Below, one piece after another: positions 16,810-33,952 of a DNA stretch of 64,000 bases. Position 1 is the first letter of the stretch. Each line of letters opens with the position of its first letter. The notes beneath the pieces are model-generated. The model saw only the letters and a list, made by a program, of their open reading frames with translations. It did not search any database and was not told where the DNA came from. The stretch covers positions 25,521-89,520 of the forward strand of contig CAYLXA010000013.1 in assembly GCA_964387845.1 (NCBI GenBank), in the 5' to 3' direction. The DNA is from an uncultured bacterium. Lineage in GTDB: Bacteria > Omnitrophota > Omnitrophia > Omnitrophales > Abzuiibacteriaceae. The position numbers and the translations under genes were made by a program.

Positions 16810-16810
16810 G

Positions 16811-17407: not shown

Positions 17408-17411
17408 CTAA

Positions 17412-17488: not shown

Positions 17489-17490
17489 CC

Positions 17491-18654
17491 TTATCTATCA
17501 ACTTCCCCTAAAACGATATCAACACTTCCAAGAATAATGACAGCATCCGCCACTTTGTGGCCGAGGCACATATCTTCTAAAATCGTCAAATTAACAAAGC
17601 TGGGCGCACGGACGTGATAACGATATGGTTTGTTCGTGCCGTCGGAAACCAGATAAAATCCAAGCTCGCCCTTAGGCGCTTCGATGCGGCTGTAAACATC
17701 GCCTTTCGGCGGCTTGAAGTTACGCGGCGTTTTTCCGATTGTGGCACCTTGCTTTGAAATATGCTCACCGGCCGGAATTTCTTTTACGGCCTGCTCCAGA
17801 ATCTTGATACTTTCACGCATTTCCAAAATACGGACATAATAACGGTCATACACATCGCCATGGTCGCCTAGCGGCACGCGGAACTTGAAACGATTATAAA
17901 TTCCGTAACCATCAACTTTGCGAATGTCGTAATCAACACCGGCCGCGCGAAGCATGGGGCCTGTGACACCTGCATTAATTGCCAAATCTTTGGGTAAAAC
18001 ACCGACGCCTTGCGTGCGGGACATTAAAATTTCGTTTTCGGAAAGCAATTTTTCGAATTCATCGAGAAACTTCGGATATTTTTGGATAACTTCTTTCACG
18101 CGAGGCAAAAAATCCTCCGTCACATCCAGTTTTTGTCCGCCGAAGCGGAAATAATTACACATCATGCGTGAGCCGGCAACGCTTTCGAATAAATCGAGAA
18201 TTTTTTCGCGCTCGCGGAATGCATAAAGCACGGGCGTAAAGAATGCGCCCAAGTCATTCAGCAAAAATCCGACGAGGAGCGTGTGATTCACAAGCCGCGT
18301 GAGTTCCGCCATGATGATTCGAATATACTGTGCGCGCTCTGAAACCTCGATTTTGGCGAGTTTTTCAACCGCCATTGCGTAAGAAAAATTGTTGGTCATC
18401 GAGCAGAGATAATCCAAGCGGTCCGTAAAGGGCATCGAGGCCAAGTAAGTCATATTTTCGGCGAGTTTTTCGTGATTGCGGTGCAGATAGCCCATGAAAG
18501 GCTTCAGCTGAACAATGTTTTCGCCGTCGAGTTTAATATCCATCCGGAACACGCCGTGCGTGGAAGGGTGCTGCGGCCCGAGGCTGACTTCGAGCGTTTG
18601 CGTGTCGAGCGTTTTATCGAGTAAATTATGTTCCATATTTATTTTCGTCGTCAT
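17491..18654 (-). CDS. nuoD: NADH-quinone oxidoreductase subunit D (49 kDa)
   Basis: The 387-aa protein has a typical NuoD N-terminus and the C-terminal LGEVDR. Confidence 0.9.
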
Positions 18655-18659
18655 TCTGA

Positions 18660-18710
18660 GGCGCAGCCGAAGAATCTAGATCCTTCGCTTCGCTCAGGAT
18701 GACGATTAAT
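18660..18710. repeat. Palindromic element between nuoC and nuoD, related to the elements at 32738 and 33528 (family G)
   Basis: tcgtcattctgaggcgcagccgaagaatctagatccttcgcttcgctcaggatgacga has a 13-bp outer stem with one mismatch. It shares the gtcatt..gaggcg / cgaag.aatct motifs with the repeats flanking 32893..33522. Confidence 0.55.
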
Positions 18711-18712
18711 TC

Positions 18713-19225
18713 TTATCCTGTCGCCTTCTGGATGACTTCGCTTTGATCATCCGACACATAGTCTTTGCGCATCGGATAAAACTGAAAACCTTCCCACATC
18801 AAAATTCTGCGTAAGTCCGGATGTCCTTCGAATTGAATCCCGAACAAATCGTACGCTTCGCGCTCTTGAAACTCGGCACTCCGCCAAACAGGTGTCACGG
18901 ACGGAATTTTCCCCGTTTCGCGGTCGGTACGGACTTTGATGGCGAGCGGGCCATGTTTTTTTGTCATGGAATACAAATGATAAACCGCTTCAAGATGCGT
19001 GGTGTAGTCAACGCCCGAAACGCTTGAAAGGAAATTAAGCTCATAATCGGGATTTCCCTTAAGAAACATGGCCACTTCAAGCCATTTTTCTTTGGGAACT
19101 ATCAAACTATCCGCTTCAATCGTAATTTGCGAAGACGTACGTGATTCGATGTCTTTTTTAATTTCTTCTAGGGATTTCACGAATACACCGTAATGTCTTT
19201 GCGGGAATTGGCCTGCGGATTCCAA
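18713..19225 (-). CDS. nuoC: NADH-quinone oxidoreductase subunit C (30 kDa)
   Basis: The 170-aa protein has the NuoC-like motifs EAVYHL and [18 protein letters not shown]. Confidence 0.85.
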
Positions 19226-19854
19226 ATTTCAGGATTGTACTTCGGGATTAAACCGTTCGGCCCGTATTCCGGAACCGGAAATTCACGTTTCAGGCCTTTT
19301 TGATACCACTCGGTTTTTTCAATTTCTTGCGAATCGATTTTCTCTTGAAGCTTCATTAAACCATGCAAGAGCGCTTCCGGGCGCGGCGGGCAACCGGGCA
19401 GGTGAACATCGACCGGAATGTAACGATCAATTCCTTTTAACACATTGTATCCGTCGATAAACGGGCCGCCCGAAATGGAACAAGCGCCCATCGTGATGCA
19501 ATATTTCGGCTCCGGCATTTGATTGTAGAGACGAACCACATTCGGCGCCATTTTTTTGGTGACTGTGCCGGCGATGATGATGAGGTCAGCTTGACGCGGC
19601 GAAGCGCGGAAAAGTCCCGCGCCGAATCGATCGATGTCGTAGCGTGCGCAGGCCGTGGCGATCATTTCAATCGCGCAGCAAGCAAGTCCGAACTGGAGCG
19701 GCCAAATAGAAGAGCGGCGGCCCCAATTGTAAAGCGCTTCAAGGGGCGTAATGTAAACGCCCTTTTTTGATAGTTCGTTTTTTAAACCGTCTTCAACTTG
19801 ATTAACATTCGGTGTGAAAGCCATTATTTCCATTCCAGCGCGTGTTTGCGCCAT
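19177..19854 (-). CDS. nuoB: NADH-quinone oxidoreductase subunit B (20 kDa, N2 cluster)
   Basis: The protein has GLACCAIEM and [10 protein letters not shown]. The start is more likely the internal Met near 19824-19833, because the longest ORF overlaps nuoA. Confidence 0.85.
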
Positions 19855-20219
19855 GCGTAGGCAAGCCCGAGAGCAAGAATTGCGATGAAAATTAACATTT
19901 CAATAAAAGCAAAAAGCCCGAGCTGGTTGTAAGCAACCGCCCAAGGGTAGATAAAGACGGTTTCGACATCGAAAATCACGAAAATCAGCGCGAAGATGTA
20001 ATACTGGACCTTAAATTGAATCCATGCGTCACCCTTGGCTTCAAGGCCGCATTCGTAAGAGGCATTTTTTATCTGATTGGGTTTCTTGGGTGCGACGATT
20101 TTGGCTAGTATTATAGGAAGCGCTGGGAAAACAATGGCGACCAGAAGAAACACACCCAGAAACCAATAATTGTATAAATACGAATCGATATTGTTCATCT
20201 GAAATAGGGAATTGGACAA
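19824..20219 (-). CDS. nuoA: NADH-quinone oxidoreductase subunit A
   Basis: The 131-aa protein has three TM helices and is the first gene of the operon. Confidence 0.85.
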
Positions 20220-20241
20220 CGATATCCGTTGATTATAGTTA

Positions 20242-20269
20242 ATCTGTAAGAAGTGTCAACACTGTGCTA
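20242..20269 (-). promoter_or_regulatory. Near-consensus sigma70 promoter for the nuo operon
   Basis: The minus strand reads TTGACA (20269..20264), a 16-nt spacer, then TATAAT (20247..20242). This puts it ~20 nt upstream of the nuoA start. Confidence 0.5.
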
Positions 20270-20370
20270 CTTATATAACGTTGGGAACATTTTCAAAGAA
20301 AGCGCAGGGTAGTCATGACTTCAACTAATTTAACGATTGAAAAATAAAAGGGAAGTCATGGCAACAACAC

Positions 20371-23300
20371 TTAAACCGAGAGAGAAATTGTGGTTGGTGC
20401 TTTCTCGACTAAAATTTCAAAAAGGATTTCGAAAAATGTTTTCACCGGATTTCCGGAAGGTTTTGGGCCGCCGCGCAAACGGATCATTTCGCCGTTGAAT
20501 TTGTCCAATTGCTGTAATGACGCAACGCCGATTTGCAGAGGGGCGACACGGGTTGAGCTTTGGATTAAAGACTTGGCAGTTGAAATCGGTTCATTCTGAA
20601 CTACCGCAGATTCATCAAGCGTTTCCAAACCTCCGGTTATTGTAGCAATTGCACCGGAAACATTTGCTTTTGTATTGGAGGCAGCCTGTCGCGGAACATT
20701 GCCGCTGCCGGATGCTGCCGCAGGCTGTGTTCCAGGGCTTGGGTTATTATAGGGCACAATCACGCCGACAATTCCCGGCGTATAATATCCGCCTGTGTTT
20801 TGAGGATTTGCCGTCTCTTGCGGTGAACCGTTTTCCGGCCCGCCTTCGTCCGGATTGGAATCCGGAGGATTCTGGGTTTCACCGTTGGTAGCGGGGCTTT
20901 CCGGGATAACTGCAAATGTTGCTTCTATCGTATGATCAGAAGTGACGTTATTAAATGTATAACTCGAAACCGCGCCGACGGAGGTTGAATTCACAAGTAC
21001 ATCTTGGATTTCGTAGCGCGAATCGGGCGTAATTGTAAAAGTCGCATTGTCACCTTCGTTGACCACAACATCTCCAACCGGTGAAATTTGGCCGCCTTCC
21101 GAAGCGCTTGCGGTAATTGTGAAGGCTAGTGGATTACATGGAGCGCCTTCCGGGCAAATACACATATCGTTTGCTTCATCGCATTCTTCACCGGTGTCAC
21201 AGGCAGAAGTTCCGGATTGGCATCCTGCTGTTGCATTACAAGTCTCGCTTCCGTTGCAGAATAATCCATCCGAACAAATCGAATCATCCGGCGTATTGGC
21301 GCAGCCGTTTACGGAATCGCAGGAATCATTTGTGCAGGAGACGCCATCATCACACACAAGCGGTGCGCTCGCCTGACAACCTAAGCCGGGGTCACAGGTC
21401 TCCGTACCGTTACACACATTGGCGTCATCGCACACAAGCGGTGTTCCGGCCTGACAGGTATTATTTACACAAGCTTCAGCGCCGTTACATAAATTTCCGT
21501 CGCCACACTCCGAATCACTGATACAAGCAAAACACTGATCATTCGGTTCATCACAATGGTCCGGATCCGAGCAAGGCTCGGTTCCGTTTTGGCAAATTCC
21601 GGCAATACAAATTTCGGCTCCTGTGCAGAATAACCCGTCAGAACAGCTCATACCATCCACAACCGGGGTTGATTCGCAGCCCGTTGCAGGATCACAAGCT
21701 TCCGCGGTGCATGGATTGCCGTCATCACAGACAAGCGGCGCGCCTGTTTGACAACCCAGCGTTGAGTCGCAACTTTCAGGGCCGTTACAGACATTTCCGT
21801 CATCACATGTTAGCGGTATCCCGGATTGGCAACCCAAGGCAGAATCGCAGGTTTCTGTTCCGTTGCAGATGTTGCCATCATCGCAAACGAGAGAAGTTCC
21901 GGCTGTACAGATGCCTGCCTGGCAAGTTTCCGTTCCATTACAAGCGTTGCTGTCATCACAGTCGGAGTCATTAAGGCATCCTGTGCATTGATCGTTTGTT
22001 TCGTCGCAGATCAGGTTTGGTCCTGAGCAAGGTGCCGGATTTGATTGGCAACCCAGAGCGGCGTTGCAGATTTCAGCTCCCGTGCAAAATAATCCGTCCG
22101 AGCAAACCGAATTGTCTGTTGTATGCACACATCCGCTCAAAGAATCGCAGGAATCATTCGTACAAGCAATTCCATCATCACAATTAAGAGGAACACCCGA
22201 TAAACAACCCAAAGTTGGATCGCAAGATTCAATACCGTTACACGCATCGGCGTCTCCGCAGTTTAATGGCGCACCCAACTGACAGCCAAGGACAGAATCA
22301 CAGGTTTCTGTTCCGTTGCAGAGGTTGCCGTCATCGCAAGCAAGCGGAGTTCCTGGCTGGCATGAACCCGAGACGCAGGTTTCTGTGCCATTACAGGTAT
22401 TGTTGTCTGAGCAATTTGCATCGGTTAAACATGCTTGCACTACGATAGTGATTGCCGGTGAAAATCCGCTGCCGAAACCGCCATCCTGAGGCGGCTGGGA
22501 CCAAGCCTGTACACGGGCGTAGTAAGTTCCGGTTTGTGAAATTACAAACGGTTCAAAAATTCCCGATGGCCAGCGTTCATCGATATTCTGTACAAAATTT
22601 GGATCCGGCGACAATTGTACTTGATAGATCGCAGCGCCCGGAACCGCGTCCCATTCCAAATTGAATGCTCCTAAATTCGGCGAAGGCGGATTTGCGCTCA
22701 CGCCGGGCGGCGCCGAGAAATTCACGGAAATCATAATATCGTCGGAACCTGTGAGCATCGAGTCATCTGCGGTCAACCGTAATTGATAAGAACCCGGATG
22801 CGAAAATGTAACGGACGTGCTGGTATTGTTCGGCGGATTGAATGTGGCGATACCGCCGGAGCTGGTTACTTGCGACCAGCTGACCGTCACCGCACCGGGC
22901 GGATTCGGCAGACCATCATCCGTCACGCCGCCGTTAATGATTGCCGAAGTGCCGAAAGCGACGGTTTGATCATTTCCAAGGTCAACGGTTGGATTTTCAT
23001 TCTGTAAAGTCGATTGGTACTCATACGGACCGATGTCGGTTTGCGCATCGCGCGGGCGGTCTCTGACGTCGGTATGCAAATTCGGCATCGGAAATCCCGC
23101 GTCAATGGCGGCTGATTCGCTGTGCAAATCGTAATCGTTGACCGAAGGAGCTTCTGAAAAATTAACCATCAACACATCCGTTGCGGTTTGCAGGCTCGAA
23201 TATGTGTCGACGCCGTTGAGAAATGACCGCCAGTTGTTGAAATTGGTTATGGGATCTGGTGACGACCACTCGATCCCGCCGGCTGCGAAATACTGACAGT

Positions 23301-26300
23301 CGATATAGATATTGTTGTTGTGCTGAATCGCCGCAAAATCTGTGTAGTTGAAGTAAGCTGCGCAATAAGCCGGCGCCGCTTCTTTTTTGTAAACGATGTT
23401 GTTTAAGAACTGAATGTTGGGGGCGCTTGACGGACTTGCCTCTGCGCCGATGAGGACCACGTAACTATCGTATCCGTTGCCGATCAGTAAATTGTTATAG
23501 AATCGGCCGTTTTCTTGGACGTTGTCCAAAGACAAAGCTTTTCCGATCGATGCGTCTACCACGTTATTAAAGAATTCAATGTTGGAACCTATGCCGCCGA
23601 CCGTGCCGTTGATGTAATTGTTGTAATAGCGGCTGTTACGGTTGAGTTGAAGTGCGCCCGAAAGGCCGGCGTTGATCGTTATGTTGTTCGAAAATAAATT
23701 GCCAGCAGCATGTCCATAAATCACATGGCCGTATCGGTCATAGGTGTATTGCCAAGGATCTGATATTTCTGAAAGGCATATCTCAACAGGATAGCTGGAG
23801 TCGTCGGCAATGACGAGAGGCCCGATATTTTCAAATCGGTTGTTCTGATAAGTAAAATAGTTATCAATTGTCGGGTGGGGCGTTAGATCCGCGATACCCA
23901 TGCTATTAAGGCTTCTGAGAGTACTGTCATAAACTTCGATATATTGACCGGGATTTCCGCCGGGCAGCGGGTTCATTTTAATACCTTCCTCGCCATGCTG
24001 AATGGTTAAGCCGATGAAACGGATGTAGGATGCTGACGTGTAAAACCGGTTTTGTCCGGGAAAGTAAAACGAATGTTCTGACGGGTTGGTCCCGGACGGG
24101 AGGCGAATGTATAAGCGCCCACTTGTGCAATCGATAAAATAAGCGTTGAATGAAGTATTGGAATTCGGGATTGTTAATACATCAAGCATATCTTGATGAC
24201 GGAGCATGCGGCTGAAGGGCCGTTCAAGATCCATGATTATGCCTCTCGGATAATTTCCTTCACCGCCGTTTGCGTTAGGATCGTATGTTCCAAGCGATGT
24301 ATCAGTCCACCAGATTGAATAATTGCCCGCGTTTTCTGAAAATGTCCAGTTTGAAGGAATGCTTGCTCCCGAATCAATGACCGGTGTTTCGCCGGGATAG
24401 TTTCGAATGGTTACCCACTGATTCGGCGCTCCGCCGCGATCCATAAGGTTGTAGGATCCAAACGGCTGTGTTCCACCGCGGATGTAAACCGTATCTCCAG
24501 GATTGAGCTGATCAAACGTTGCGCTTACATTGCAAATCGGCTGGGCAAGAGATCCGGGGCCGCTGTTGCTGCACGCCGGATTATTTGCATCAACTACGTA
24601 GTAATTTCCCGCGCAATCGTTTGAACAATCAAAATGGCTTTCACGCCGGAGATCACAGTAACCGTCACCGCAAGTCCCGGCGCAATCCTGCGAGCAGGTT
24701 TGAACCGTCTCTGGCGCTTCACAAATACCGTCGCCGCAAAGTGCGGTAGTGGTAACCGAAAAAGACGCTTCAATGGTGTGGGTTGTTTGTACGTTGTTAA
24801 ACGTATAACTGGAAATAGCGCCTTGCGAAACGCTGTCGACGAGCACATCCGTAATTTCGTAACCGATATTGGGCGTGATTGTAAATATTTGATCGCTGCC
24901 TTCGGCAACATTGACCGTGCCGTTCGGTACAATGTAGCCGCCGTTATTTGCTGTTGCATTAATTGAATGTGAAGGGCCTTCTACTTGGCAGATTGAGCTG
25001 CAGCCGTCGCCGCTTGCCGTATTGCCGTCGTCGCAAGTTTCATTGCCGACGACTAAACCGTCACCGCAAATTGGATTACATTCTGGGTTGCTGCCGGGAT
25101 TTACAGTGTCAACGGAACAGGTCCAACCGGCCTCGTAATAAATCGTGTCTTGCATAATGGCCGAAATGTTTCCAACACTATCAATCAATCTGGCAAACAC
25201 TGTCCGTTCACCGCTCGGCCCGCTGGCAAGTTTCCAGCGCATGACGTTTTCATACGGAGTCGGGTCACTCCAAATTGTTCCGTTATTAGAAAATATTACG
25301 GATGTGATCGAGGATCCGCCTGAGTCAGAAACCGTTAAGTAGATATGCGAGTCTAACGAATAAGTAACCGCCGCGTCATTCTCAATCAGTATTGTTCCGC
25401 TCGGCGGTTCAAGATCAACGACAAACTGAACCACATTGGAATATTCGGTTGGGTTCCGCCCAAGTTGAAACGGCGGCACGGGCGGTGATTCCCATCCGCG
25501 CACGCGGGCGTGATAAGTATTTGAGGTGCTCAACGAAACAGGAACAAACGTATCGTTTGACCAAAGAGTCGTAACATTGGAAGCAAAATTAGGGTCGGTT
25601 GAAATTTTGATTTCGTAAGCATTTGAGCCCAGCGACGGAGTCCAAGCGAGATTAAAATCGCCGTCATTGGGCGTTGCGGGTTGCGCCAGAACAGGCTGGA
25701 CGGCGGCTTGTGACGCAAAAGCCCCAATGTGGCAGCCTGTGCTTCCGGTTGGCGTGACGGAAACATTAAAACCGTTTTCGATGACATTAAGGCACATGCC
25801 CGAGTGGCTTGCAGGACTGCCCGGTTGAAGATTGAAATCAGCGTTTGCGAGATCCACAAATTGCGGATCTGCTTGAATATTTGAATCTGCCAGATTGAAG
25901 TTATTAAAATCAGCTACTGAGTAAAGCCCGCTCACCACGATTTGCCCGTTTCCGCCGCCATCTTTTAAAGCTCTAATAACCGAAGTTTCGTGGGCCGGAT
26001 TAGACGAGTAAATCAAATTATTTCGAATGTCATCGCCGTATCCGCCAAAATTCGTATCAACATATTCCAGCGGATCGTAATGAAGCATTAGTAGCTCAGC
26101 ATTGAAAGTATTGCCGAAAGAGACTGGTGAAACATAATCATGGTTGGCATCCATCAAAATATTGTTCCAGATGCGGACATTATATATAGCATTCAGGGCG
26201 TCCGGAGGATTCCAGTTGAAATTGGCAGTATAAATTCCACGCGGCCCCGGACTGTGAATGGTATTGTTAAAGATGTATACGTCCTGAATTAAATTTTGGT

Positions 26301-29300
26301 CAGCAACATTTGCAACGAGCGTGATTCCGGTAGAATCGTTAAATCCGTCATAAATAACGTTATTGTAAATGTAAAGTCGTTCTGTTTTTCCGGGCCCGAT
26401 TTGAATTGCGCCGCCGCGGTGATTTGATTCTGAAGGGAATTGGTTGGTTCCAAAAAACGTGTTATTTCGAATAATCGTATTTTGTGAAATGCCGGGATTT
26501 CCGTCAATTGAACCGATGCCGAATGAAGTGTGAAACCGATTTCGGAATGTATTATTCTCTATTAAAACATTTTCAGAATTCCGGAAACCGACAGTTCCAT
26601 GTCCGCAATCACCGAACCAGCTGTTTTTAATAGTCGTATTTCTTGCATCATCGCCAACAATTCCGTCAACGCCGCCGCCGTTCATCAGAAGCAAGCTCGG
26701 GCTTGCCGTGCAATTTAAATTTAAATTGTCAATCTCTACTCCATCGGTATCGAGAACTTTAATTCCGTTTGCCCAAGGTTCCGCGTAACTTTGCTCCGGC
26801 GGCCAGCGGTGGCCAATGCCGATATCATCATTTCCGGTGAATGAAGTGACTGATATATTTTTGAGCTTGACGCCATTTGACCGTTGAATGCCAAGCACGT
26901 AGGGTGCATACAATCTTCCGCCTGCGGTATCGATATGCCCAATGAAATTTAATGAATCAAAAGTAATGTCGTTTGCCAAATAAGTTGTCAGCATATATAT
27001 GCCGATATTGCTGCCTTGAGCCGTCATACTGCTGCCGTGTAAATTCACGGTTTCATTCGGATAGCCGCGAATCGTAATCGGGTTTGCCTCAGTTCCCGAA
27101 CTTCGGATGACAATAAAATTGTTTGCATCAATGTAGGGGAGGAAGTAATCGCCGCCCCGAATGTAAACCGTATCGCCGATATTTAATTTTTCATAAGGAG
27201 ACGTTTCACGAAGCGCTCTCGGCGTGCACCACGGCGTATTGGGATCGAGTGCTTGAGTTCTTGAGTAACTGTCCGAACAGTCACAATTATTTTGATCAAT
27301 GAAAAGCATATTAGTTCCGTTCGCAAGCTCTTGCGGGTCGGAACTGCCGACCGTGCATCCGCCTTCGGATTGGCTTGTATATTCAAATGCGCCGGGCGCG
27401 CAACTTCCGCTTTCAGGACGCGGATTTCCGTCAAAATCCACCGCAACTTCCGGAAGACAAGGGACCGAGCCGATCGCAGGGCTGTCCTGCTGTAAATGAA
27501 AATCGCCGATACCAGCGTTTACGAAAAGCGGGTTGCCGTCTACGTTGTCTTCGGCGAATGACAGTGCATTAAATTCGTCGATGGTGTAGTGATAACGCTG
27601 CGTGTTCCGATTGTTGGTGCTTTGGACCGGGTCTTCGGCAGGATTGAGTTCTTTGACCCAGTTATTTTCAAACACATTTCCATAGCCATTTTGGCCTTCA
27701 AAATCCCAGCCGCCCAGCCGGATTTCGCCGTGAATTTGTTCTCCTTCGCCCGTATAAGTTTGAATTCCGTAGAAAATATTATTTTTGATTTGATTATTAT
27801 TGGCCCAATTATTTTGGCCGAAAACGCCGTTATTGCCGACGCTCATGTTGGCGTAGCCTGTGTTGTAAACCGTGTTGTGAAAGATTTTATTGTTGTTGGC
27901 TTCAAAGAATCCGGTGCCGGGCCCGTTTTGATCCTGAGAATTGGCAATCGAAATTCCGTTTCCATTTAATGCGCCGTTGTAAATCACATTGTTATAAATC
28001 AGGTTGTCACTGGCCCCCAAAATCTGAATGCTGTTTGCGCGAAGCGTGGTCTCCGAAGGAATTGAATTGTAAGTATGAAACGTGTTATTCCGGATGATGT
28101 TATCGTGAGAACCGACACCAACGGCGATATTGGTATGGAGCGTATTTGAAAAATCATTATTTTGCACCAAAACGTCATGCGTATTAAAACGAAGCACAAG
28201 TAGAATGTGGCCGCAGTCACGGAATGTATTGTTTTCGATTAAGCCGCCCGAGACATAATCCATCATGATGCCATCGCCGGAATAGCGGTTGTCCGGGTTA
28301 ATTTGATCGTTAACTTGCATGCATCGGAAAAAACTATTCTTCACTGTGATGTTGCTTGCATTATCAAATTCGATGCCGTTGCCATAAGGTGCATTAGGAG
28401 CGCGATCGTCGTAGCCGATGTCATCGGTGCCTTTGAAGTCAACAACCGAAATGCTGTCAAATACAATATCGCTGCTTCCGCTGACAACCTCAATGACTCG
28501 CGGGCCATACAATTTTCCGTTTGGGTTACCAACATCCACGTTGCCGACAAAATGAAGATTTTCAAATGTGATGAAATGAACGTCATTCAGAACAAATGTG
28601 CGTTCGAACGCTGTGTGCGCACCGCGGATGACTGCCGTTTCGCCGGGATATGAAGTGAATGTAATTCGGTTGCTATCGCTTGTGCCCGATGAATTGATTC
28701 TGACTGTGGTATCGACGATCGGATATTCACCGCCGCGAATATAAACGGTGTCGCCTGCGTTTAATTTGTGATTGGGCCGGTTTTCATGAAAGCCAAGAGG
28801 CGAACACCAGGGTGTATAAGGATCGCGTGCCGCATACCGGTCTCCAGCGTCGCTGCAGTTGCAATTATTTTTATCCACAAAGAGAACATTGGCGCCGTTG
28901 GCAAGCCCTTGCGGGTCAGAGCTTCCGGCTATGCAGCCTCCGAGCTCTGATGGGTGATTGTTGGGATCGTTGGGATTAAATCCGCCTGCAAATTCTTCAC
29001 CGTCTGAGTAGCCGTCACCGTCTGTGTCCGGATTATTAGGATCCGTGCCGTTTTGAAATTCCTGCAGATTGATAAATTGATCATTGTCCGGGTCATCCGT
29101 GCCGTTTTGATTGAGATTGCCGAAGTGCAGCATTTCCCAAACGTCCGGCAAACCGTCTTGATCTGTATCTGAAGTGTCGTTGTAAACATACTCGAATGGA
29201 CCGATGTCGCAGGCAGCGCCTTGCGGCCGGATATGGTTGTCAAAATCAAAATCTACTTCAGGAACACAGATTCCGGCATCCACTGCCGAGCTTTGCTCGG

Positions 29301-31257
29301 TTGGGTGAAAATCGTGATTCTGCGGATCGACAAATAAAGGCACGGTTCCGAGATTATCTACGATTGTTCCAGTCCCAAAAAGGTTATCCAGATTTTGAAG
29401 TGTGTAATCAAAGTGTATATACGGAGGATTGGAAGTTCCAAAATTTCGCGTAGACATCACAAATCCGCCCGGGTTGTCAGTCACCAGCAAATTATTTTTG
29501 ATTTCATTTCCGTAACCCTGATTGGGTTCGAAGCCATAAATATCAAAGAAAATAGGACGGTTGAGATAATACGCATATGTCTGAGAGTAAGGTCCGTCGG
29601 CAGCTCCGCCGGTTTTAAGCTGGATGATATTGTTTTGCACTTTGTTGTCATGCACATAATTGGTATTTGGCAACAGGACGTCATTTATATCCGGACGATT
29701 ATTAAACTCAATCGCTTTTACCATAGAGTTGTGCGTGGTTGCTGTCGGGTCGTCCATATAAATTAAATTATGATAAACCTGGTTCCGGTCGGAATTCGAA
29801 TCGCCGTTTCCGATAAAAGTAATGCCGTGCAAGGAACGCCGCCTCGGCTCGTCAGCGTCGTAGTAAATGATGTTGTTGTGGATTTGGCTGTCGGAAGCCG
29901 AGAGCATTTCAATGGCATGGCCGCCTTGGTTTCCCGTGGTCGGGTACACATTCCAGTTGTAAATCAAATTATTTTTAATAGTCATTTGACTGCCGCCGAA
30001 TGCAAAGCAGGTATGAAGTTCGTTATTACAGGAATTATTTTCAACCGTTATGTTGTCAGACCATCTAACCGTTAAGCTGATATGTCCGCAATTTCCAAAA
30101 GTACTATTTTTTACGCTGCCACCGGATACGCGATTAAATTGAATCCCGTCGCCCGAGAAGCGAAAATCTTCGGTCGGGCGCTCAGAGTATTCAGAGCAGC
30201 TGACAGATGCATTCTCGATTTTAATATTAGAAACGTCATCAAATTGTATTGCACTCCCCCAAGTTTCATAGTCTTCCCCGGTTTTCCGCCACCTAAAGCC
30301 GTAACCGATGTCATTGAGGCTTTGAAAATTAAGAACGCTTGTATCTAAAATTTGAATATCTTGGGCTGGATTTCCAACAGTCCCGCTAATTCTCAACGGA
30401 TTCGGCATGTAAAGTCTGCCTTCCGGCGTATCTTCATAGGCAATAAAATTAAGCCCCTTTAACGTAATGTAGCTGGCGTTATTCAAGATCAGAATCCACG
30501 AATAATTATAAGAGCCGCCGCGTATGGTAACCGGCTCATAACCACTCGGTTCAGTTTGAGAGGGATATGCTTGGATCGTGATCCGCTGCGCAGGCCCGGC
30601 GCCGGACGTATTAACGCTCGCATTATGTTCCGTATAGTCGCCGCGGCGAATGAAGACTGTATCGCCCGGATTCAATTTATGGTTTGGCCTGTATTCGGTT
30701 AACCCGCGCAAACTACACCACGGTGTTGCGGGATTTAAGGCTTCCGGGCGTTCACGGTTATCGCGGCAATTACAATTGCTCTGATCGACAAACAGAACAT
30801 TCAGCCCATTTGCCAAATTCAAAGGATCTGTATTGTTGTCACACTGACGAAGTGGAATACTGCTTGCGTTGGTCGGGCTACTGCCTAATCTGATCTCGTC
30901 GTCATCATTGACGCCATCTCCGTCTGTGTCATATCCGATGTTTCCGTTGCCCACAGTTGGATTGGTATTAAAAGCAACTTCCCGAAAGTTGGGCACTCCG
31001 TCTCTATCCGGATCGTCGTATTGATCATAACTTGTGATATCGCCAAAGTATTGAATTTCCCAATCATCTGAAAGGCCATCAAAATCAGTGTCAATTTCAC
31101 CGGCGGCAATTTGGGGAAGGGGAATGCCCATGAAGACGAGCGTGAAAATAATGATCAAAGAAACAAAATCAGAAAGAAATTTGGAAACAACTTTCTTGAA
31201 CTGCCGGGATTTTATTTTTTTTTTGTGTGATTTATCTGATTCGGAGCTTCGTCCCAT
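20371..31257 (-). CDS. Giant secreted multidomain surface protein (3628 aa). It has TSP3-like Ca-binding repeats, four pectate-lyase-type beta-helix modules, FN3/PKD-like domains, InlB-B-type repeats, a Myxococcus-type Cys-rich repeat and a Dictyostelium/EGF-like Cys-repeat region.
   Basis: A single uninterrupted ORF with an N-terminal signal/anchor ([18 protein letters not shown]). It has DxDxDGxxDxxE motifs and repeated NxxxN/right-handed beta-helix signatures. The module-start motif LANGxNVLF(V/I)DxxNC(N/D)C...TPWC...GDTVYIRGG occurs three times. A CGDGxxxxxExCDDGNxxSGDGCSxxC unit is present. About 20 CxxGxxxxxCDDGNxCTxDxC-like units lie between ~22435 and ~21130. Confidence 0.85.
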   Translation of the reverse strand: [3628 protein letters not shown]

Positions 31258-31485
31258 TTTAGCTGTTCTGCTTTCTTCTTAACTGATAAAAGTTTATCAT
31301 CTTATTAAAGCATTTACAAAAGATTACAAAACTATTTTAAAAATAATTAGTATATCCGGATATTAAGGAAATATAAGCGGTTTTGAATTTTGAATTAGCC
31401 GTCGTGGGCGCTAAAAATTAGACGACAGGGTACTATTCCATAGGCTTGAAAATGCCAAATTCTATGCTAAATTTTGCCTTCTAAA

Positions 31486-31512
31486 TTGACACAAAACGCG
31501 TGCTGTGATAAT
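31486..31512 (+). promoter_or_regulatory. Candidate promoter for the peroxiredoxin gene
   Basis: TTGACA at 31486..31491, then an extended -10-like tgtGATAAT at 31504..31512. The spacer is short at 15-16 nt. An RBS GGAGG precedes the ATG at 31577. Confidence 0.3.
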
Positions 31513-31576
31513 TTCAATGGCTCCAAAGCAATTTTAACTGGATATTAATAGCAGTTTGAGTCATCAGGAGGTTGTT

Positions 31577-32101
31577 ATGTCAGTACAAGTAGGTTCACCC
31601 GCGCCCGATTTTAAAATGCAGGCCGTTGTGGATGGCGGAAAGTTCCAAGATGTAAAGTTGAGCGATTACAAAGGAAAATGGGTGGTGCTGTATTTTTATC
31701 CGCTCGATTTTACCTTTGTTTGCCCGACGGAAATCACGGCTTTTCGTGAAAAATTGGAAGAGTTTAAAAAGTTAAATACTGTCATTGTTGGAGCCAGTAT
31801 TGACAGCGTTTATTCGCACAAAGCTTGGATCGAGCAGCAGCTCAAGGATTTACACTATCCTTTGGCAAGCGATCTTTCAAAGGATGTTTCACGTCGCTAT
31901 GGAATTCTCTTGGAAGAAAAGGGAATTACACTTCGCGGAACTTTCATCATCGATCCGAACGGTATTTTGAAATGGCAGCTTGTCAACGATCTCGGAATCG
32001 GACGCAATGTGGATGAGGTTTTGAGAGTGCTCCAAGCGCTTCAGACCGGCGAGCTTTGCCAGGCCAACTGGAAGCCGGGCCAAAAGACCTTAGGCAAATA
32101 A
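31577..32101 (+). CDS. Peroxiredoxin (typical 2-Cys Prx/AhpC family)
   Basis: It has FTFVCPTEI around the peroxidatic Cys and a resolving Cys near the C-terminus. The start is set at the Met after the RBS, which gives MSVQVGSPAPDFK. Confidence 0.85.
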   Translation: MSVQVGSPAPDFKMQAVVDGGKFQDVKLSDYKGKWVVLYFYPLDFTFVCPTEITAFREKLEEFKKLNTVIVGASIDSVYSHKAWIEQQLKDLHYPLASDLSKDVSRRYGILLEEKGITLRGTFIIDPNGILKWQLVNDLGIGRNVDEVLRVLQALQTGELCQANWKPGQKTLGK

Positions 32102-32285
32102 ACTAGTTCAGATTTTAAAAAAATAGCCCACGCAAAGAAAAAGCGTGGGTTATTTTTTTGTGTCCTTTTGCTACATTTTTAGGTGTAGTTTAAGGAAAAA
32201 CCAGATCAAAATTCGCCGTAAAAATCTTTTATTCACTTGCCAATTTAGGCGCGGTCGGTATAATAACCGCCCTTTTGAGGAAACC

Positions 32286-32729
32286 ATGATTAAAGTAGCC
32301 AGAACAAGAAAACCAAAGAAACAGCACGTCGAAGCGGTTGCGGCGTTAATCCGCAACGAAAAGGACGGTTCTTTCTTTATTACCCAGCGGCACTTGGATG
32401 ATTTTTTAGGGGGGCTTTGGGAATTTCCGGGCGGAAAGCGCCGCCGCGGTGAAAGCTTTGAGCAAGCACTTCGCCGGGAAGTCAAAGAAGAAACTGACTT
32501 GATCATTGAAGTGGGCGCCCGTCACCGCGCGTCGTCATTCGAATATCCTGACCGTGTTGTAAATCTTTATTTCTATTGGGCTCGTGTTTTAAAGGGAAAG
32601 CCCAGAGCGATTGGCTGCCGCGATTTTAAGTGGGTCCAGCCTGCCGAACTTCTCAATTATACGTTCCCGCCGGCAGATGCCGAGTTGATTTTGGAACTTT
32701 CCAAGCCGACTGAGCTATTCTGCAACTAA
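32286..32729 (+). CDS. Nudix hydrolase (MutT-like)
   Basis: It has the Nudix box GGLWEFPGGKRRRGESFEQALRREVKEETDL. The start is placed at the internal Met MIKVART. The upstream part of the longest ORF looks noncoding. Confidence 0.7.
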   Translation: MIKVARTRKPKKQHVEAVAALIRNEKDGSFFITQRHLDDFLGGLWEFPGGKRRRGESFEQALRREVKEETDLIIEVGARHRASSFEYPDRVVNLYFYWARVLKGKPRAIGCRDFKWVQPAELLNYTFPPADAELILELSKPTELFCN

Positions 32730-32737
32730 GCTAGTAC

Positions 32738-32830
32738 TGTCATTGCGAGATACGTTATTTGGTATCGAAGCAATCTCGGTACTTAGATTGCTTCGGCACT
32801 GCACAACGCGCCTCGCAATGACGACTTGAC
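32738..32830. repeat. ~90-bp palindromic intergenic repeat (family G), copy 1
   Basis: gtcattgcgag ... agattgcttcggc ... aacgcgcctcgcaatgac. The outer arms are inverted repeats of each other. About 40 nt are near-identical to the copy at 33586..33625. Confidence 0.7.
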
Positions 32831-32892
32831 CTTCCTTAGCAATTTGACGATAATCAATTCATCGATTTTTTGATAACCAGGAGGAGGAAAAT

Positions 32893-33522
32893 ATGGCGTT
32901 GTCCGATCTTTATAGCAATTTTCATTTGTTTTTCAGATGGCTTCACGTATTTGTCGGTATTATTTGGATCGGCCATCTGTATTTTTTCAATTTTGTGAAC
33001 GTCCCGCTTCAAGCCTCACTAGATGATGCCGGCAAGAAAGTCGTCAACCCAAAACTGATGCCGCGCGCACTTTGGTGGTTCCGCTGGGGCGCCATGCTCA
33101 CGTTTATTTCCGGGTTGATTCTTTATACGATGATTTACATGTATACGCCGGGAGCCGGATTTGGCCCTTCATCCGCGTTTCGTGATCTTTTCGGTAATAT
33201 TACGGGTAGATCAATTTGGATTTTAATCGGAATGTTATTTGGCACGATTATGTGGTTCAACGTGTGGTTTATTATTTGGCCTGCTCAGAAAGCTCTTTTA
33301 TCCGGAAAAGTTCCGGCCGATCAAGCCGCCGGCGTTCGCCGCAGAGCCTATTTGGCGTCACGTACAAATACCTATCTGTCGGGCCCCATGCTTTATGGTA
33401 TGTTGGCTCCGGGGCATTACGGCGCGTTTAGCTGGGTGACGTTTTTGGTGTTTGGTTTGGTGGCGGTGGCCTTGATTTTCCACGCCATTCAGAAATCCCC
33501 CAAAGTCGGTACGTCAGTTTGA
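32893..33522 (+). CDS. Polytopic membrane protein, possibly of the HemJ/UPF0093-like family
   Basis: The 209-aa protein has 4-5 TM helices. Its first helix has the F-W-L-H-x-F-V-G-I-I-W-I-G-H-L-Y-F pattern, reminiscent of HemJ-type proteins. An RBS GGAGGAGG sits 6 nt upstream. Family G repeats flank the gene on both sides. Confidence 0.55.
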   Translation: MALSDLYSNFHLFFRWLHVFVGIIWIGHLYFFNFVNVPLQASLDDAGKKVVNPKLMPRALWWFRWGAMLTFISGLILYTMIYMYTPGAGFGPSSAFRDLFGNITGRSIWILIGMLFGTIMWFNVWFIIWPAQKALLSGKVPADQAAGVRRRAYLASRTNTYLSGPMLYGMLAPGHYGAFSWVTFLVFGLVAVALIFHAIQKSPKVGTSV

Positions 33523-33527
33523 TCTAA

Positions 33528-33625
33528 TCGTTATTGCGAGGCGCCTTAATCAGCGTCGCGGCAATCCCTGTTCTGAGATTGCTTCGGCGTTAATCAACGC
33601 GCCTCGCAATGACAGTTCAATTTAT
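33528..33625. repeat. ~95-bp palindromic intergenic repeat (family G), copy 2
   Basis: ttattgcgaggcgcc ... agattgcttcggcgttaatcaacgcgcctcgcaatgac. It has the same architecture as copy 1 and sits between convergent genes. Confidence 0.7.
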
Positions 33626-33634
33626 ACTTTAAAA

Positions 33635-33892
33635 TTATTCTAATTCCTGCAAAAACGAATTCCGGCTTTTCAAATCGACAAACACAACCTGGTCTGGATA
33701 ATTTAACCCCGCTTCACTGACAAATACTGTGGTGCCGTTGATCTGAAACGCCATTACCTCGCAACCCTCGATGGGAAGTTTGTTCCCGCCCCCTATGATT
33801 TTATCGACAATTTCCTGGCTTACGGCTTTGGCTTTTTGGCCGCGCGCGTCGAGGTAATTCACCAGGATTGTCTTTAGGTCTTGGATTGTCAT
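33635..33892 (-). CDS. Small hypothetical protein (85 aa)
   Basis: An ORF with a LacI-type palindromic operator 29 nt upstream. I recognise no family. It does not end in GG, so it is not a ThiS/CysO-type carrier. Confidence 0.45.
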   Translation of the reverse strand: MTIQDLKTILVNYLDARGQKAKAVSQEIVDKIIGGGNKLPIEGCEVMAFQINGTTVFVSEAGLNYPDQVVFVDLKSRNSFLQELE

Positions 33893-33920
33893 TGTTATTT
33901 CCTCTTTTCTCCGGTTTTAT

Positions 33921-33934: not shown

Positions 33935-33952
33935 TAAAAATTAAAAAAAATA

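What the first reader, a model, noticed from the sequence alone, without database searches (positions are those of the whole stretch)
20371..31257. Single 10.9-kb ORF encoding a 3628-aa multi-beta-helix, Cys-rich surface protein directly upstream of the nuo operon
The frame is uninterrupted and carries an N-terminal signal/anchor. It has calcium-binding Asp-rich (TSP3-like) linkers and four parallel beta-helix (pectate-lyase-like) modules. FN3/PKD-like domains and two InlB-B-type repeats ([57 protein letters not shown]) are present. A ~435-aa region holds about 20 EGF/Dictyostelium-like Cys repeats (~22435..21130). The 170-aa C-terminal tail is low complexity and has no sorting signal I recognise.

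Multi-beta-helix giant proteins are typical of polysaccharide-binding or polysaccharide-degrading surface machinery. The gene sits between the peroxiredoxin promoter region and the nuo promoter, with no obvious terminator of its own.
Basis: partly seen in the sequence, partly recalled or inferred. Interest (0 to 1): 0.75.

Follow-up and report, generated by a model that had tools for sequence, protein, structure and literature searches.

The report
Large multi-beta-helix surface protein, Omnitrophota
A real 3,628-residue secreted protein of an uncultured Omnitrophota bacterium carries four sugar-polymer-recognising beta-helix heads plus adhesion and cysteine-rich stalk domains; it is an ordinary, mid-sized example of the large surface proteins already known from this phylum, and its position next to the nuo operon comes from a recent gene insertion.

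Summary
Window 20371..31257 (-) is one uninterrupted 3,628-codon ORF.
- Sec-type signal peptide and bacterial TSP3 calcium-binding linkers
- three paralogous right-handed beta-helix modules plus a fourth divergent one
- PKD, DUF4215 and two InlB-B-type domains
- about 17 four-Cys Dicty_CTDC-type units

The host is a Candidatus Omnitrophota MAG, a phylum already known for large and giant surface proteins.

A close relative (NuoD 93% identical) has a syntenic 3,181-aa orthologue. It has the same N-terminus, the same three heads and the same C-terminal ~69 residues, but a reshuffled distal half. More distant relatives have ahpC and nuoA back to back with no such gene. The gene is therefore a lineage-specific insertion between two divergent promoters and is not functionally tied to nuo.

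Best reading: an exported, disulfide- and Ca2+-stabilised, multivalent glycan-binding and possibly glycan-cleaving adhesin or depolymerase. Whether it is an enzyme or only an adhesin is unresolved.

The C-terminal tail is not just low complexity. Its last ~69 aa are conserved but have no other homologue among 1.84 billion representatives.

Verdict: new member of a known kind, modest interest.

The parts
31291..31319 (-). Candidate promoter of the large gene: TTGTAA-17-TAAACT with a TG extended -10. The -10 ends 33 nt before the ATG.
   Evidence: Sequence read. It is 27/29 identical in the JGI orthologue's upstream region. It scores 8/12, below the threshold of the consensus scan, so one search did not list it. 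Function is inferred, not shown.
31102..31257 (-). aa 1-52: basic n-region, the protein's single hydrophobic segment (aa ~23-50) and an A-x-A-type cleavage site. This is a Sec signal peptide.
   Evidence: A Kyte-Doolittle scan finds this as the only hydrophobic peak in 3,628 aa. The orthologue has ...PIPAFA|DTD at the same place.
30847..31101 (-). aa 53-137: first bacterial TSP3 (Ca2+-binding, Asp-rich) linker, with D-x-D-x-DG motifs at aa 56, 82 and 110. It is the best-conserved part of the protein.
   Evidence: TSP3_bac 33 bits with two stretches. 87% identical to the orthologue, dN 0.074. Motif positions.
29182..30846 (-). aa 138-692: beta-helix module A1. It has a disulfide-bearing N-terminal cap, a right-handed beta-helix and a choice-of-anchor-Q-type C-terminal cap.
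   Evidence: Beta_helix. choice_anch_Q at aa 650-690. 40% identical to A2.
28942..29181 (-). aa 693-772: second TSP3 Ca2+-binding linker.
   Evidence: TSP3_bac 36.5 bits and Binary_toxB Ca-binding 23 bits.
27370..28941 (-). aa 773-1296: beta-helix module A2, with family-invariant D946, R952, H1017 and H1041.
25708..27369 (-). aa 1297-1850: beta-helix module A3.
   Evidence: Beta_helix 28.4 bits. Disaggr_assoc 22.5 bits, just under its 22.6 cut-off. 44-49% identical to A2.
   Evidence: Copy 1 is 42% identical to aa 2853-2940, and both domains are present in the orthologue. No Pfam or PDB sequence hit. The fold label is unverified.
24754..25116 (-). aa 2048-2168: DUF4215/myxo_disulf_rpt Cys motif plus InlB-B-type (Flg_new_2) domain, copy 1.
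   Evidence: DUF4215 40.6 bits and TIGR02232 42.6 bits. Flg_new_2 only 14.4 bits, but 62% identical to copy 2.
22993..24609 (-). aa 2217-2755: fourth, divergent beta-helix module B, preceded by a short CGDG-type Cys linker at aa 2169-2216 (nt 24610..24753).
22438..22977 (-). aa 2761-2940: K319L-like PKD domain (aa 2761-2845) plus copy 2 of the ~90-aa 'FN3-like' domain (aa 2853-2940).
   Evidence: K319L-like_PKD 27.9 bits against a cut-off of 27. Repeat pair.
21133..22434 (-). aa 2942-3375: Cys-rich array with 70 Cys in about 17 four-Cys Dicty_CTDC-type units, arranged as three ~151-aa super-repeats.
   Evidence: Dicty_CTDC 49 bits. Super-repeats 59-70% identical. Cys spacing 6-6-6-8. No solved homologue.
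20905..21120 (-). aa 3380-3451: InlB-B-type (Flg_new_2) domain, copy 2.
   Evidence: Flg_new_2 24.1-24.2 bits against a cut-off of 23.6.
20581..20904 (-). aa 3452-3559: Pro/Gly/Ser/Asn-rich low-complexity spacer, poorly conserved.
   Evidence: Alignment with the orthologue.
20374..20580 (-). aa 3560-3628: conserved orphan C-terminal segment (...STRVAPLQIG.ASL.QL.KFN...IR.RGGP..SGNP..TFF.IL.EI...KA.T.ISLSV).
   Evidence: 68% identical to the orthologue. The only true hit among 1.84 billion cluster representatives is that orthologue (P0256, E 1e-25). The other two hits are repeat artefacts.
20232..20259 (-). The nuo operon's own promoter, TTGACA-16-TATAAT (12/12), between the large gene's stop codon and nuoA. 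It is not part of the large gene but shows the two are separable units.
   Evidence: The same element lies downstream of a strong terminator in the JGI relative.

Best explanation
The ORF is a genuine gene for an exported, cell-surface or secreted, multivalent glycan-recognition protein of a Candidatus Omnitrophota bacterium.

**Proposed mechanism**
1. A Sec signal peptide takes the chain out of the cytoplasm. The domain evidence is shown; export itself is inferred.
2. 116 cysteines and five D-x-D-x-DG calcium loops stabilise it outside the cell (inferred).
3. Three paralogous right-handed beta-helix heads (A1-A3) and a fourth divergent one (B) each present a long groove of the pectin-lyase-like type, which binds and possibly cuts or modifies a polysaccharide. 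The fold is shown; substrate and chemistry are inferred.
4. The heads are spaced by TSP3 linkers. They are followed by Ig-like/PKD/InlB-B adhesion domains and a rigid Dicty_CTDC-type disulfide stalk.
5. The conserved N-terminal TSP3 segment and the conserved orphan C-terminal ~69 residues are the likeliest attachment or sorting ends, while the middle is shuffled between close relatives. The conservation pattern is shown; the role is inferred.

**Context.** This phylum contains many ultra-small, host-dependent cells and has documented large adhesion or cell-wall-attacking proteins. The most likely job is therefore to hold on to, and perhaps locally digest, the surface glycans of another cell or a polysaccharide matrix. 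The gene was inserted recently between the divergent ahpC and nuo promoters and is not part of the nuo system.
For: **Gene reality.** ORF and translation. Identical sequence from a second assembler. No nucleotide repeats. Open orthologue with saturated dS and dN of 0.16-0.31, against 0.04-0.10 for the well-conserved neighbours NuoB/C/D, AhpC, NUDIX and NirA-like.

**Export.** One N-terminal hydrophobic segment with an A-x-A site that is conserved in the orthologue.

**Domains.**

**Conserved polar set.** D946, R952, H1017 and H1041 are invariant in all 15 family members: six Omnitrophota modules plus nine single-module homologues. An acidic residue at aa 995 is conserved in every row shown. 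The two His lie one helical rung (24 residues) apart.

**Homologue context.** A module-B homologue carries a peptidoglycan-binding domain and sits next to a GHL15 + PG_binding gene.

**Related modules in the window.** The same Cys-rich modules occur on an 893-aa pilin-like protein 29 kb away.

**Host.** NuoD is 74-82% identical to named Omnitrophica/Omnitrophota MAG proteins.

**Literature.** Large and giant Omnitrophota ORFs are proposed as adhesins or surface-polysaccharide degraders (PMC10066038; bioRxiv 10.1101/2023.11.21.568195). TSP3-repeat scaffolds in the phylum are described in bioRxiv 10.64898/2026.06.07.730766.

**Insertion.**
Against: - No expression, localisation or activity data exist.
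- No CAZy or Pfam family-level enzyme assignment was obtained. Identity to every solved beta-helix is 8-20%, and sequence-profile hits are weak.
- The best sequence match of the central region is the pneumococcal adhesin PfbA, which shares the 'GH' motif, so the conserved residues need not be catalytic.
- I could not superpose the model on AlgE4. The HMM alignment to AlgE4 is out of register with its catalytic Tyr149/Asp152/His154/Asp178.
- The route across an outer membrane is unknown. No secretion genes flank the gene.
- No recognised sorting signal is present.
- The orphan C-terminal segment has only one homologue, so its role is a guess.
Confidence: 0.7

Rival explanations
1. It is specifically a multi-catalytic polysaccharide depolymerase, lyase or epimerase. 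Each beta-helix head is an active enzyme that uses the conserved acidic/His/His/Arg set, like a string of tailspike depolymerases. The cell uses it to digest host or prey envelope polymers or environmental exopolysaccharide.
For: - D946, R952, H1017 and H1041 are invariant across 15 sequences, and an acidic residue at aa 995 is conserved in every row shown.
- The D-x-x-H motif followed by His one rung (24 residues) later resembles the spacing of AlgE Asp152/His154 and Asp178 (residues from PMC7385640). The equivalence is my inference, not tested.
- A3 and homologue P0005 touch the Disaggr_assoc model.
- A module-B homologue has PG_binding_1 and a GHL15 neighbour.
- The literature proposes cell-wall degradation for Omnitrophota giants.
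Against: - No hit to any curated lyase or hydrolase family above threshold.
- Pel9A-like appears only in the precomputed list, not in my scan.
- The GH87 alignment does not conserve the motif.
- The PfbA adhesin shares the GH motif.
- Activity, substrate and metal dependence are untested.
Confidence: 0.35
2. It is a purely structural adhesin or coat (S-layer-like) protein. The beta-helices act as rigid, non-catalytic binding or spacer rods, as in PfbA, Vag8 or filamentous haemagglutinin.
For: - PfbA is the best sequence hit of the central region.
- There are abundant Ig-like, PKD and InlB-B domains and a Cys-rich stalk.
- The orthologue replaces head B and the stalk with at least 7 Flg_new_2 domains, as expected for a reach or adhesion scaffold.
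- Evolution is fast, with domain shuffling.
Against: - The strictly conserved polar residue set across phyla is unusual for a mere spacer.
- Most structural neighbours are enzymes.
Confidence: 0.3
3. The ORF is an assembly or annotation artefact, meaning a chimeric join or collapsed repeats, or else a decaying pseudogene.
For: - The sequence is a short-read MAG.
- The protein is a singleton 90% cluster.
- The second assembly probably uses the same reads.
Against: - No nucleotide repeats of 30 nt or more.
- An independent metagenome (JGI 3300028648) has a collinear open orthologue with the same two ends and the same flanks.
- dN is far below the saturated dS.
- All modules keep their family-invariant residues.
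Confidence: 0.03
4. The gene is functionally coupled to the nuo operon, either co-transcribed or acting as an accessory to complex I.
For: - Same strand, with only 151 bp between its stop codon and nuoA.
- No canonical terminator in this window.
Against: - nuoA has its own perfect TTGACA-16-TATAAT promoter.
- The orthologue has a -32.8 kcal/mol terminator before that promoter.
- Relatives with NuoD 82-83% identical have ahpC directly divergent from nuoA and no such gene.
Confidence: 0.03

Closest known systems
Large and giant surface ORFs of Omnitrophota: 'Archaeovorin-type', 'Dockerin-type' and TSP3 tandem-repeat scaffolds (West-Roberts et al. 2023 bioRxiv 10.1101/2023.11.21.568195; Seymour et al. 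2023 PMC10066038; Nielsen & Lui 2026 bioRxiv 10.64898/2026.06.07.730766)
   Same: - Same phylum.
- Extracytoplasmic, repeat-rich and poorly conserved.
- Fast-evolving, with conserved domain types but divergent sequence.
- Carries bacterial TSP3 repeats and carbohydrate-related or adhesion domains.
- The proposed role is attachment to, and digestion of, other cells' surfaces.
   Different: - Only 3,628 aa (10.9 kb). This is below the 20-kb and 10,000-aa thresholds used in those studies.
- One N-terminal hydrophobic segment instead of many TM helices.
- No dockerin (PF00404), SecA-DEAD or C39 peptidase domain.
- Its beta-helices are the classical right-handed parallel type, not the novel antiparallel beta-helix tubes described there.
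- Not adjacent to a type II secretion-like locus. The flanks are ahpC and nuo, and a pilin cluster lies 23 kb away.
Single-module 'right-handed parallel beta-helix repeat-containing proteins' of Patescibacteria/CPR, for example P0003 from a Candidatus Nomurabacteria MAG, GCA_020847275.1
   Same: - 48-52% identity over the whole A2 module.
- Same Cys-bearing N-cap and the same invariant D/R/H/H set.
- Same C-terminal cap followed by a DUF4215-like Cys motif.
   Different: - About 900 aa with one head.
- A Big_7 domain before the head and a C-terminal transmembrane anchor.
- A conserved housekeeping-like position, GroEL-LemA-[gene]-peptidase M48.
- The Omnitrophota protein has three tandem copies and no C-terminal TM.
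Mannuronan C5-epimerase AlgE4 A-module (2pyg), PL6 alginate and chondroitin lyases, and phage tailspike or capsule depolymerases
   Same: - Calcium-associated extracellular proteins.
- Polar residues stacked on successive rungs.
   Different: - 8-20% sequence identity.
- No family HMM hit.
- AlgE catalytic residues Tyr149, Asp152, His154 and Asp178 could not be aligned in register.
- Nothing is known about oligomeric state.
PfbA, the beta-helix surface adhesin of Streptococcus pneumoniae (3zpp/4mr0)
   Same: - Best sequence-level PDB match of the central helix region, sharing the F-K-D-x-x-G-H motif (E 2e-7).
- A surface-displayed beta-helix used for adhesion.
   Different: - PfbA is LPXTG-anchored with a single head in a monoderm.
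- The present protein has no LPXTG and four heads, and its host belongs to the PVC group.

Membership tests
Right-handed parallel beta-helix / pectin-lyase-like superfamily (Pfam Beta_helix PF13229) | HMM match above the curated threshold | tested here: met
   77.3 bits against a cut-off of 25.9, with three stretches on the whole protein. Each of A1, A2 and A3 passes on its own at 28-36 bits.
Right-handed parallel beta-helix / pectin-lyase-like superfamily | Predicted three-dimensional fold is a right-handed beta-helix | tested here: met
   [not shown]
Specific polysaccharide lyase, hydrolase or epimerase families (PL1, PL6, PL9/Pel9A, GH28, GH87, AlgE/AlgG) | Family-level HMM match and conservation of that family's catalytic or Ca2+-binding residues | tested here: inconclusive
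   - No such Pfam or NCBIfam hit up to E = 1 in my scans.
- Pel9A-like_beta_helix appears only in precomputed annotations.
- PDB profile hits are weak and mostly confined to caps.
- The AlgE4 alignment is out of register with the catalytic site.
- A different conserved D/R/H/H set exists.
Omnitrophota giant proteins (Archaeovorin- or Dockerin-type) | Length of at least 10,000 aa (or an ORF over 20 kb) | tested here: not met
   3,628 aa and 10.9 kb. Thresholds are as stated.
Omnitrophota giant proteins (Archaeovorin- or Dockerin-type) | Dockerin (PF00404), SecA DEAD-like or C39 peptidase domains, and multiple or C-terminal TM anchors | tested here: not met
   None of these domains was found. 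The N-terminal hydrophobic segment is the only one.
Omnitrophota giant proteins (Archaeovorin- or Dockerin-type) | Bacterial TSP3 repeats (PF18884) | tested here: met
   TSP3_bac 33 and 36.5 bits on the two linkers.
Omnitrophota giant proteins (Archaeovorin- or Dockerin-type) | A type II secretion-like locus immediately upstream | tested here: not met
   The flanks are ahpC/NUDIX and nuoA-N. A type IV pilin-like cluster lies at 54.2-63.1 kb, about 23 kb away.
Dictyostelium-type Cys repeat (Dicty_CTDC PF00526) | HMM match above threshold and a regular four-Cys periodicity | tested here: met
   49 bits against a cut-off of 27 on the segment. 70 Cys with 6-6-6-8 spacing, about 17 units.
Choice-of-anchor Q domain proteins (NF041518) | Domain HMM match | tested here: met
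   80.5 bits against a cut-off of 25, three stretches, one at the end of each of A1-A3.
Choice-of-anchor Q domain proteins (NF041518) | A recognised C-terminal sorting signal (PEP-CTERM, LPXTG, T9SS CTD and the like) | tested here: not met
   No Pfam or NCBIfam hit in aa 3452-3628. The tail has no homologue other than the orthologue.
InlB B-repeat / Flg_new_2 (PF18998) | HMM match above threshold | tested here: met
   Copy 2 scores 24.1-24.2 bits against a cut-off of 23.6. Copy 1 scores 14.4 bits, below cut-off, but is 62% identical to copy 2.
Type I-secreted RTX giant adhesins (LapA/MpIBP type) | No Sec signal, RTX nonapeptide repeats, a C-terminal T1SS signal and few cysteines | tested here: not met
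   A Sec-type N-terminus is present, there are 116 Cys, and no RTX/HemolysinCabind hit was found.
Autotransporter or two-partner-secretion beta-helix adhesins | A C-terminal beta-barrel translocator or an N-terminal TPS domain | tested here: not met
   No such Pfam hit. Vag8 similarity is limited to the passenger beta-helix fold.

The most novel reading that the evidence does not exclude
The A-type beta-helix module carries an invariant Asp/Arg/His/His set. I found it as single-headed, membrane-anchored proteins in Patescibacteria, probably in an archaeal contig, and triplicated here. It may define an uncharacterised family of host-surface glycan-cleaving enzymes that spreads by horizontal transfer among ultra-small episymbiotic prokaryotes. 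The Omnitrophota version would then be a multi-headed 'cellular tailspike' that is tethered by a new, lineage-specific C-terminal sorting segment.
Probability: 0.15. Interest if true: 0.6.

Novelty: new member of a known kind. Interest (0 to 1): 0.3.

Why it matters
If the best reading is right, this is one more piece of the attachment or attack equipment of Omnitrophota, a widespread uncultured phylum thought to live on other microbes.

Its practical value is as a tractable example. At 3.6 kaa it is small enough to express module by module, unlike the 30-150 kaa giants. It has well-folded heads with a clear conserved residue set to mutate. Two natural variants show which parts are kept (both ends and heads A1-A3) and which are swapped.

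The ahpC/nuoA comparison also gives a clean, datable insertion. About 11 kb was placed into a 30-60-nt gap between divergent promoters, and this shows how such genes enter streamlined genomes.

None of this overturns current views.

Tried and rejected
- **Whole-protein homology search.** It timed out, so I searched modules instead.
- **Genome-collection scan with the whole protein.** It returned only generic TSP3-motif matches in PVC and Desulfobacterales contigs. No orthologue was found among GTDB species representatives.
- **Metagenome scan with the module alignment.** It fell back on one generic pattern (xGDTVYxRGG) and returned distant beta-helix proteins. It did not enlarge the orthologue set.
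- **C-terminal tail as a widespread sorting domain.** Rejected. Only the orthologue matches among 1.84 billion representatives, and the other two hits are repeat artefacts.
- **Rfam on 18-34 kb.** Nothing found.
- **Tandem and direct DNA repeats in the ORF.** None found.
- **Module B structure.** The model is low confidence, so I relied on profile-PDB matches.
- **'FN3' and the Cys array against solved structures.** No hits.
- **Mapping AlgE catalytic residues onto the family by sequence profile.** The alignment to 2pyg falls at chain residues 235-295, not 149-178, so it is uninformative.
- **dN/dS.** Synonymous sites are saturated, so only dN is usable.
- **Sample provenance.** The accessions do not occur in the paper library.
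- **Amuc_1099 pilus-like family.** The hit is 21 bits against a cut-off of 50 and covers only a TSP3 motif. Rejected.
- **Co-function with nuo.** Rejected.


Full report
**1. Observation**

Window 20371..31257 on the minus strand is a single ATG-initiated ORF of 3,628 codons, and its translation has no internal stop. It is the largest ORF in the window. GC content across it is 0.45-0.50, similar to the flanks.

Tandem Repeats Finder and a direct-repeat search (seed 14, minimum 30 nt) find nothing in the ORF. The protein-level repeats are therefore old and diverged at the DNA level, and repeat collapse is unlikely.

The exact protein also occurs on an 18.3-kb Logan contig from run SRR15237813. 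That contig is 100% identical to window 18675..37015. This is a second assembler, probably on the same reads. The window itself is part of an 89.5-kb NCBI MAG contig, and the protein is a singleton at 90% clustering.

**2. Anatomy**

HMM scans of the whole protein and of nine segments, chunked self-BLAST and a hydropathy scan give the following layout.

| Residues | Feature |
|---|---|
| 1-52 | Basic n-region plus the protein's only hydrophobic segment, ending in an A-x-A-type site. The orthologue reads ...PIPAFA\|DTD at the same place. |
| 53-137 | TSP3_bac Ca-binding linker |
| 138-692 | Beta-helix module A1 |
| 693-772 | Second TSP3 linker |
| 773-1296 | Module A2 |
| 1297-1850 | Module A3 |
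| 1856-1947 | ~90-aa domain, repeated at 2853-2940 (42% identity) |
| ~1948-2045 | Ig-like-looking domain |
| 2048-2097 | DUF4215/myxo_disulf_rpt |
| 2098-2168 | InlB-B-type domain, copy 1 |
| 2169-2216 | Short CGDG-type Cys linker |
| ~2217-2755 | Fourth beta-helix, module B |
| 2761-2845 | K319L-like PKD |
| 2853-2940 | ~90-aa domain, copy 2 |
| 2942-3375 | Cys-rich array |
| 3380-3451 | InlB-B-type domain, copy 2 |
| 3452-3628 | 177-aa tail |

Further details:
- A1, A2 and A3 are 28-49% identical to each other. Each ends in a choice-of-anchor-Q motif.
- The Cys-rich array holds 70 Cys with 6-6-6-8 spacing. That is about 17 four-Cys Dicty_CTDC-type units, organised as three ~151-aa super-repeats that are 59-70% identical.
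- The protein has 116 Cys and five D-x-D-x-DG motifs.
- The 'FN3' label could not be verified.

**3. The beta-helix heads**

- many capsule depolymerases;

Sequence identity to all of these is only 8-20%.

*Conserved residues.* I aligned 15 sequences: the six A-type modules of this protein and its orthologue, plus nine single-module homologues. D946 (in 'DDIGY'), R952, H1017 ('CGH') and H1041 ('HT') are invariant, along with an Asn ladder. An acidic residue at 995 is conserved in every row shown. The two His are 24 residues apart, which is one rung.

This looks like a functional centre. AlgE epimerases use Tyr149/Asp152/His154 plus Asp178, which also sit one rung apart (PMC7385640). However, a profile of the central region aligns to AlgE4 out of register. 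Its best PDB sequence hits are the adhesin PfbA, which shares F-K-D-x-x-G-H, and GH87, which does not. Enzyme versus binder therefore stays open.

**4. Who carries it**

NuoD from the window is 74-82% identical to proteins named 'Candidatus Omnitrophica/Omnitrophota bacterium'. The start of a 16S gene lies at 63438..64000.

Omnitrophota are mostly ultra-small, host-dependent cells. Giant ORFs over 20 kb are common in them and have been proposed to act as adhesins or to degrade target-cell surface polysaccharides (PMC10066038). West-Roberts et al. describe Archaeovorin- and Dockerin-type giants next to type II secretion-like loci. A 2026 preprint catalogues 916 proteins of at least 10 kaa, including TSP3 tandem-repeat scaffolds.

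The present protein shares the phylum, the TSP3 repeats and the general logic with those proteins. It differs in four ways:
- It is three- to forty-fold shorter.
- It has one hydrophobic segment only.
- It lacks dockerin, SecA and C39 domains.
- It is not beside a secretion locus.

**5. Orthologue and evolution**

A JGI metagenome contig (3300028648, Ga0268299_1000036, 525 kb) comes from a close relative. Its NuoD is 93% identical, and shared housekeeping genes elsewhere in the window are 81-85% identical at the nucleotide level. It has a 3,181-aa gene in the same place, which I reassembled from loci L013 and L016.

*What is shared*:
- The ends and the heads are collinear.
- The signal-peptide region is 27% identical but keeps the same shape.
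- The TSP3 linker is 87% identical.
- A1 is 61%, A2 70% and A3 76% identical.
- The tail is 52% identical overall and 68% over the last 69 residues.

*What differs:*
- The relative has an extra 'FN3-like', Ig-like and short Cys block between A1 and A2.
- It has an extra DUF4215 after A3.
- In place of head B, PKD and the Cys array, it has at least 7 Flg_new_2 and 2 Flg_new domains.

Non-synonymous divergence of the modules is dN 0.16-0.31. For NuoB, NuoC, NuoD, AhpC, NUDIX and the NirA-like gene it is 0.04-0.10, and for the Urate_ox_N-like neighbour it is 0.16. Synonymous sites are saturated. This is a real, selected, fast-evolving and modular gene.

The tail (aa 3486-3628) was searched against 1.84 billion cluster representatives. 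It finds only this orthologue (E 1e-25) plus two repeat artefacts. The conserved C-terminal ~69 aa are therefore a lineage-specific orphan.

**6. Genomic position**

In three more distant Omnitrophota contigs (NuoD 82-83% identical), ahpC and nuoA are directly divergent, 230-266 bp apart, with no gene between them. An ahpC-side TTGACAC box and the nuo -35 box lie only about 30-63 nt apart there.

In the window the same two boxes are at 31486 (+) and 20259 (-), 11.2 kb apart. The large gene was therefore inserted between two back-to-back promoters in the common ancestor of the window organism and the JGI relative.

nuoA keeps a perfect TTGACA-16-TATAAT promoter (20259..20232), and this is conserved in the relative. 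The relative has a 22-bp-stem terminator (-32.8 kcal/mol, z -7.6) between the large gene and that promoter. The window has only a 9-bp stem with a 29-nt loop and no U-tract.

A candidate promoter for the large gene, TTGTAA-17-TAAACT with a TG extension at 31319..31291, is 27/29 conserved in the relative. It falls below the scan threshold. Rfam finds nothing in 18-34 kb.

**7. Relatives of the modules elsewhere**

The best hits to A2 (48-52% identity over 84% of the query) are ~900-aa proteins with a signal or TM segment, a Big_7 domain, one head, a DUF4215-like Cys motif and a C-terminal TM anchor.
- One of these is annotated Candidatus Nomurabacteria.
- Two of them occupy the same GroES/GroEL-LemA-[gene]-peptidase M48 neighbourhood.
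- A 38%-identical homologue (P0005) sits among genes that look archaeal, namely a Hel308-type helicase domain and SepF. That attribution is my inference.
- A module-B homologue (P0258, 34% identity) carries PG_binding_1. It is followed by a GHL15 + PG_binding_1 gene in a contig that carries five pilin-like (N_methyl) genes.

These contexts weakly favour a role on cell-envelope glycans.

**8. Mechanism, with status of each step**

*Shown:*
- the domain composition;
- the right-handed beta-helix fold of the heads;
- conservation of both ends and of a polar residue set;
- modular reshuffling between orthologues;
- the insertion history;
- separate promoters.

*Inferred:*
- Sec export and signal-peptide cleavage;
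- disulfide and Ca2+ stabilisation outside the cytoplasm;
- glycan binding in the helix grooves;
- the surface of another cell, or a polysaccharide matrix, as the target.

*Open:*
- catalysis;
- the substrate;
- the route across an outer membrane;
- how the protein is retained.

Candidates for retention are the highly conserved N-terminal TSP3 segment, which is a dockerin-like Ca2+ loop, and the orphan C-terminal segment.

I put 0.7 on the general reading, an exported multivalent glycan-recognition adhesin or depolymerase. Within that reading, enzymatic heads (0.35) and purely adhesive heads (0.30) are roughly equally likely. Artefact and nuo-coupled readings are each about 0.03.

**9. Novelty and score**

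The finding is correct and well described, but it belongs to a known kind. Large, repeat-rich, fast-evolving surface proteins with TSP3 repeats and carbohydrate-related domains are characteristic of Omnitrophota, and tandem beta-helix/Ig/Cys-repeat surface proteins are common in the PVC group.

The new points are modest:
- the triplicated head family with an invariant D/R/H/H set, shared with Patescibacteria;
- the orphan conserved C-terminus;
- the clean insertion between divergent promoters.

Interest is 0.3.

Noticed in passing
window 54235..63056 (+): A cluster of type IV pilin-like genes. Four small N_methyl prepilins (171, 156, 173 and 220 aa) are followed by a 1,268-aa protein with no Pfam or NCBIfam hit. 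Then comes an 893-aa protein with a prepilin N-terminus, 100 Cys, two DUF4215 and two Dicty_CTDC domains. The 893-aa protein shares its Cys modules with the 3,628-aa protein at 30-42% identity, with one short 31-residue match at 65%. It could be a giant minor pilin or tip adhesin.
   Followed up: partly
window 9860..9913 (-): An Rfam nhaA-I riboswitch motif (44.1 bits, gathering score 37) lies immediately upstream of the trehalose-6-phosphate synthase gene (8335..9816, -). This suggests ion-responsive control of osmolyte synthesis.
   Followed up: no
window 63438..64000 (+): The first ~541 positions of a bacterial 16S rRNA gene run off the end of the window. This could place the organism precisely within Omnitrophota.
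   Followed up: no
window 10021..20219 (-): The nuo operon has 11 genes in the order A-B-C-D-I-H-J-K-L-M-N. The ferredoxin-like NuoI comes before NuoH, and no NuoE, F or G is present in the operon. The same order is seen in the relatives.
   Followed up: partly
window 20232..20259 (-), and L016 about 8325..8352: A perfect 12/12 sigma-70 consensus promoter (TTGACA-16-TATAAT) precedes nuoA. The JGI relative has the same TTGACA-16-TATAAT element, with a few differences in the spacer.
   Followed up: yes
window 35256..40094, and L013 10001..15075: A conserved cluster: a NirA-type sulfite/nitrite reductase, Prok-JAB, a methyltransferase, a MoeZ-like ThiF-rhodanese and a PALP enzyme. It resembles a sulfur-carrier (CysO/CysM-type) cysteine biosynthesis set.
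   Followed up: no
L015 8001..10694, L101 8001..10706, L102 8001..10415: The closest homologues of the beta-helix head are single-headed proteins with a C-terminal TM anchor. In Patescibacteria they are syntenic next to GroEL, LemA and peptidase M48. One more distant homologue sits on a contig with archaeal-looking neighbours. This may reflect cross-phylum spread among ultra-small symbionts.
   Followed up: partly
L016 8251..8330: The orthologue's 3' end carries a very strong intrinsic terminator with a 22-bp stem (-32.8 kcal/mol). This has degenerated in the window organism.
   Followed up: yes
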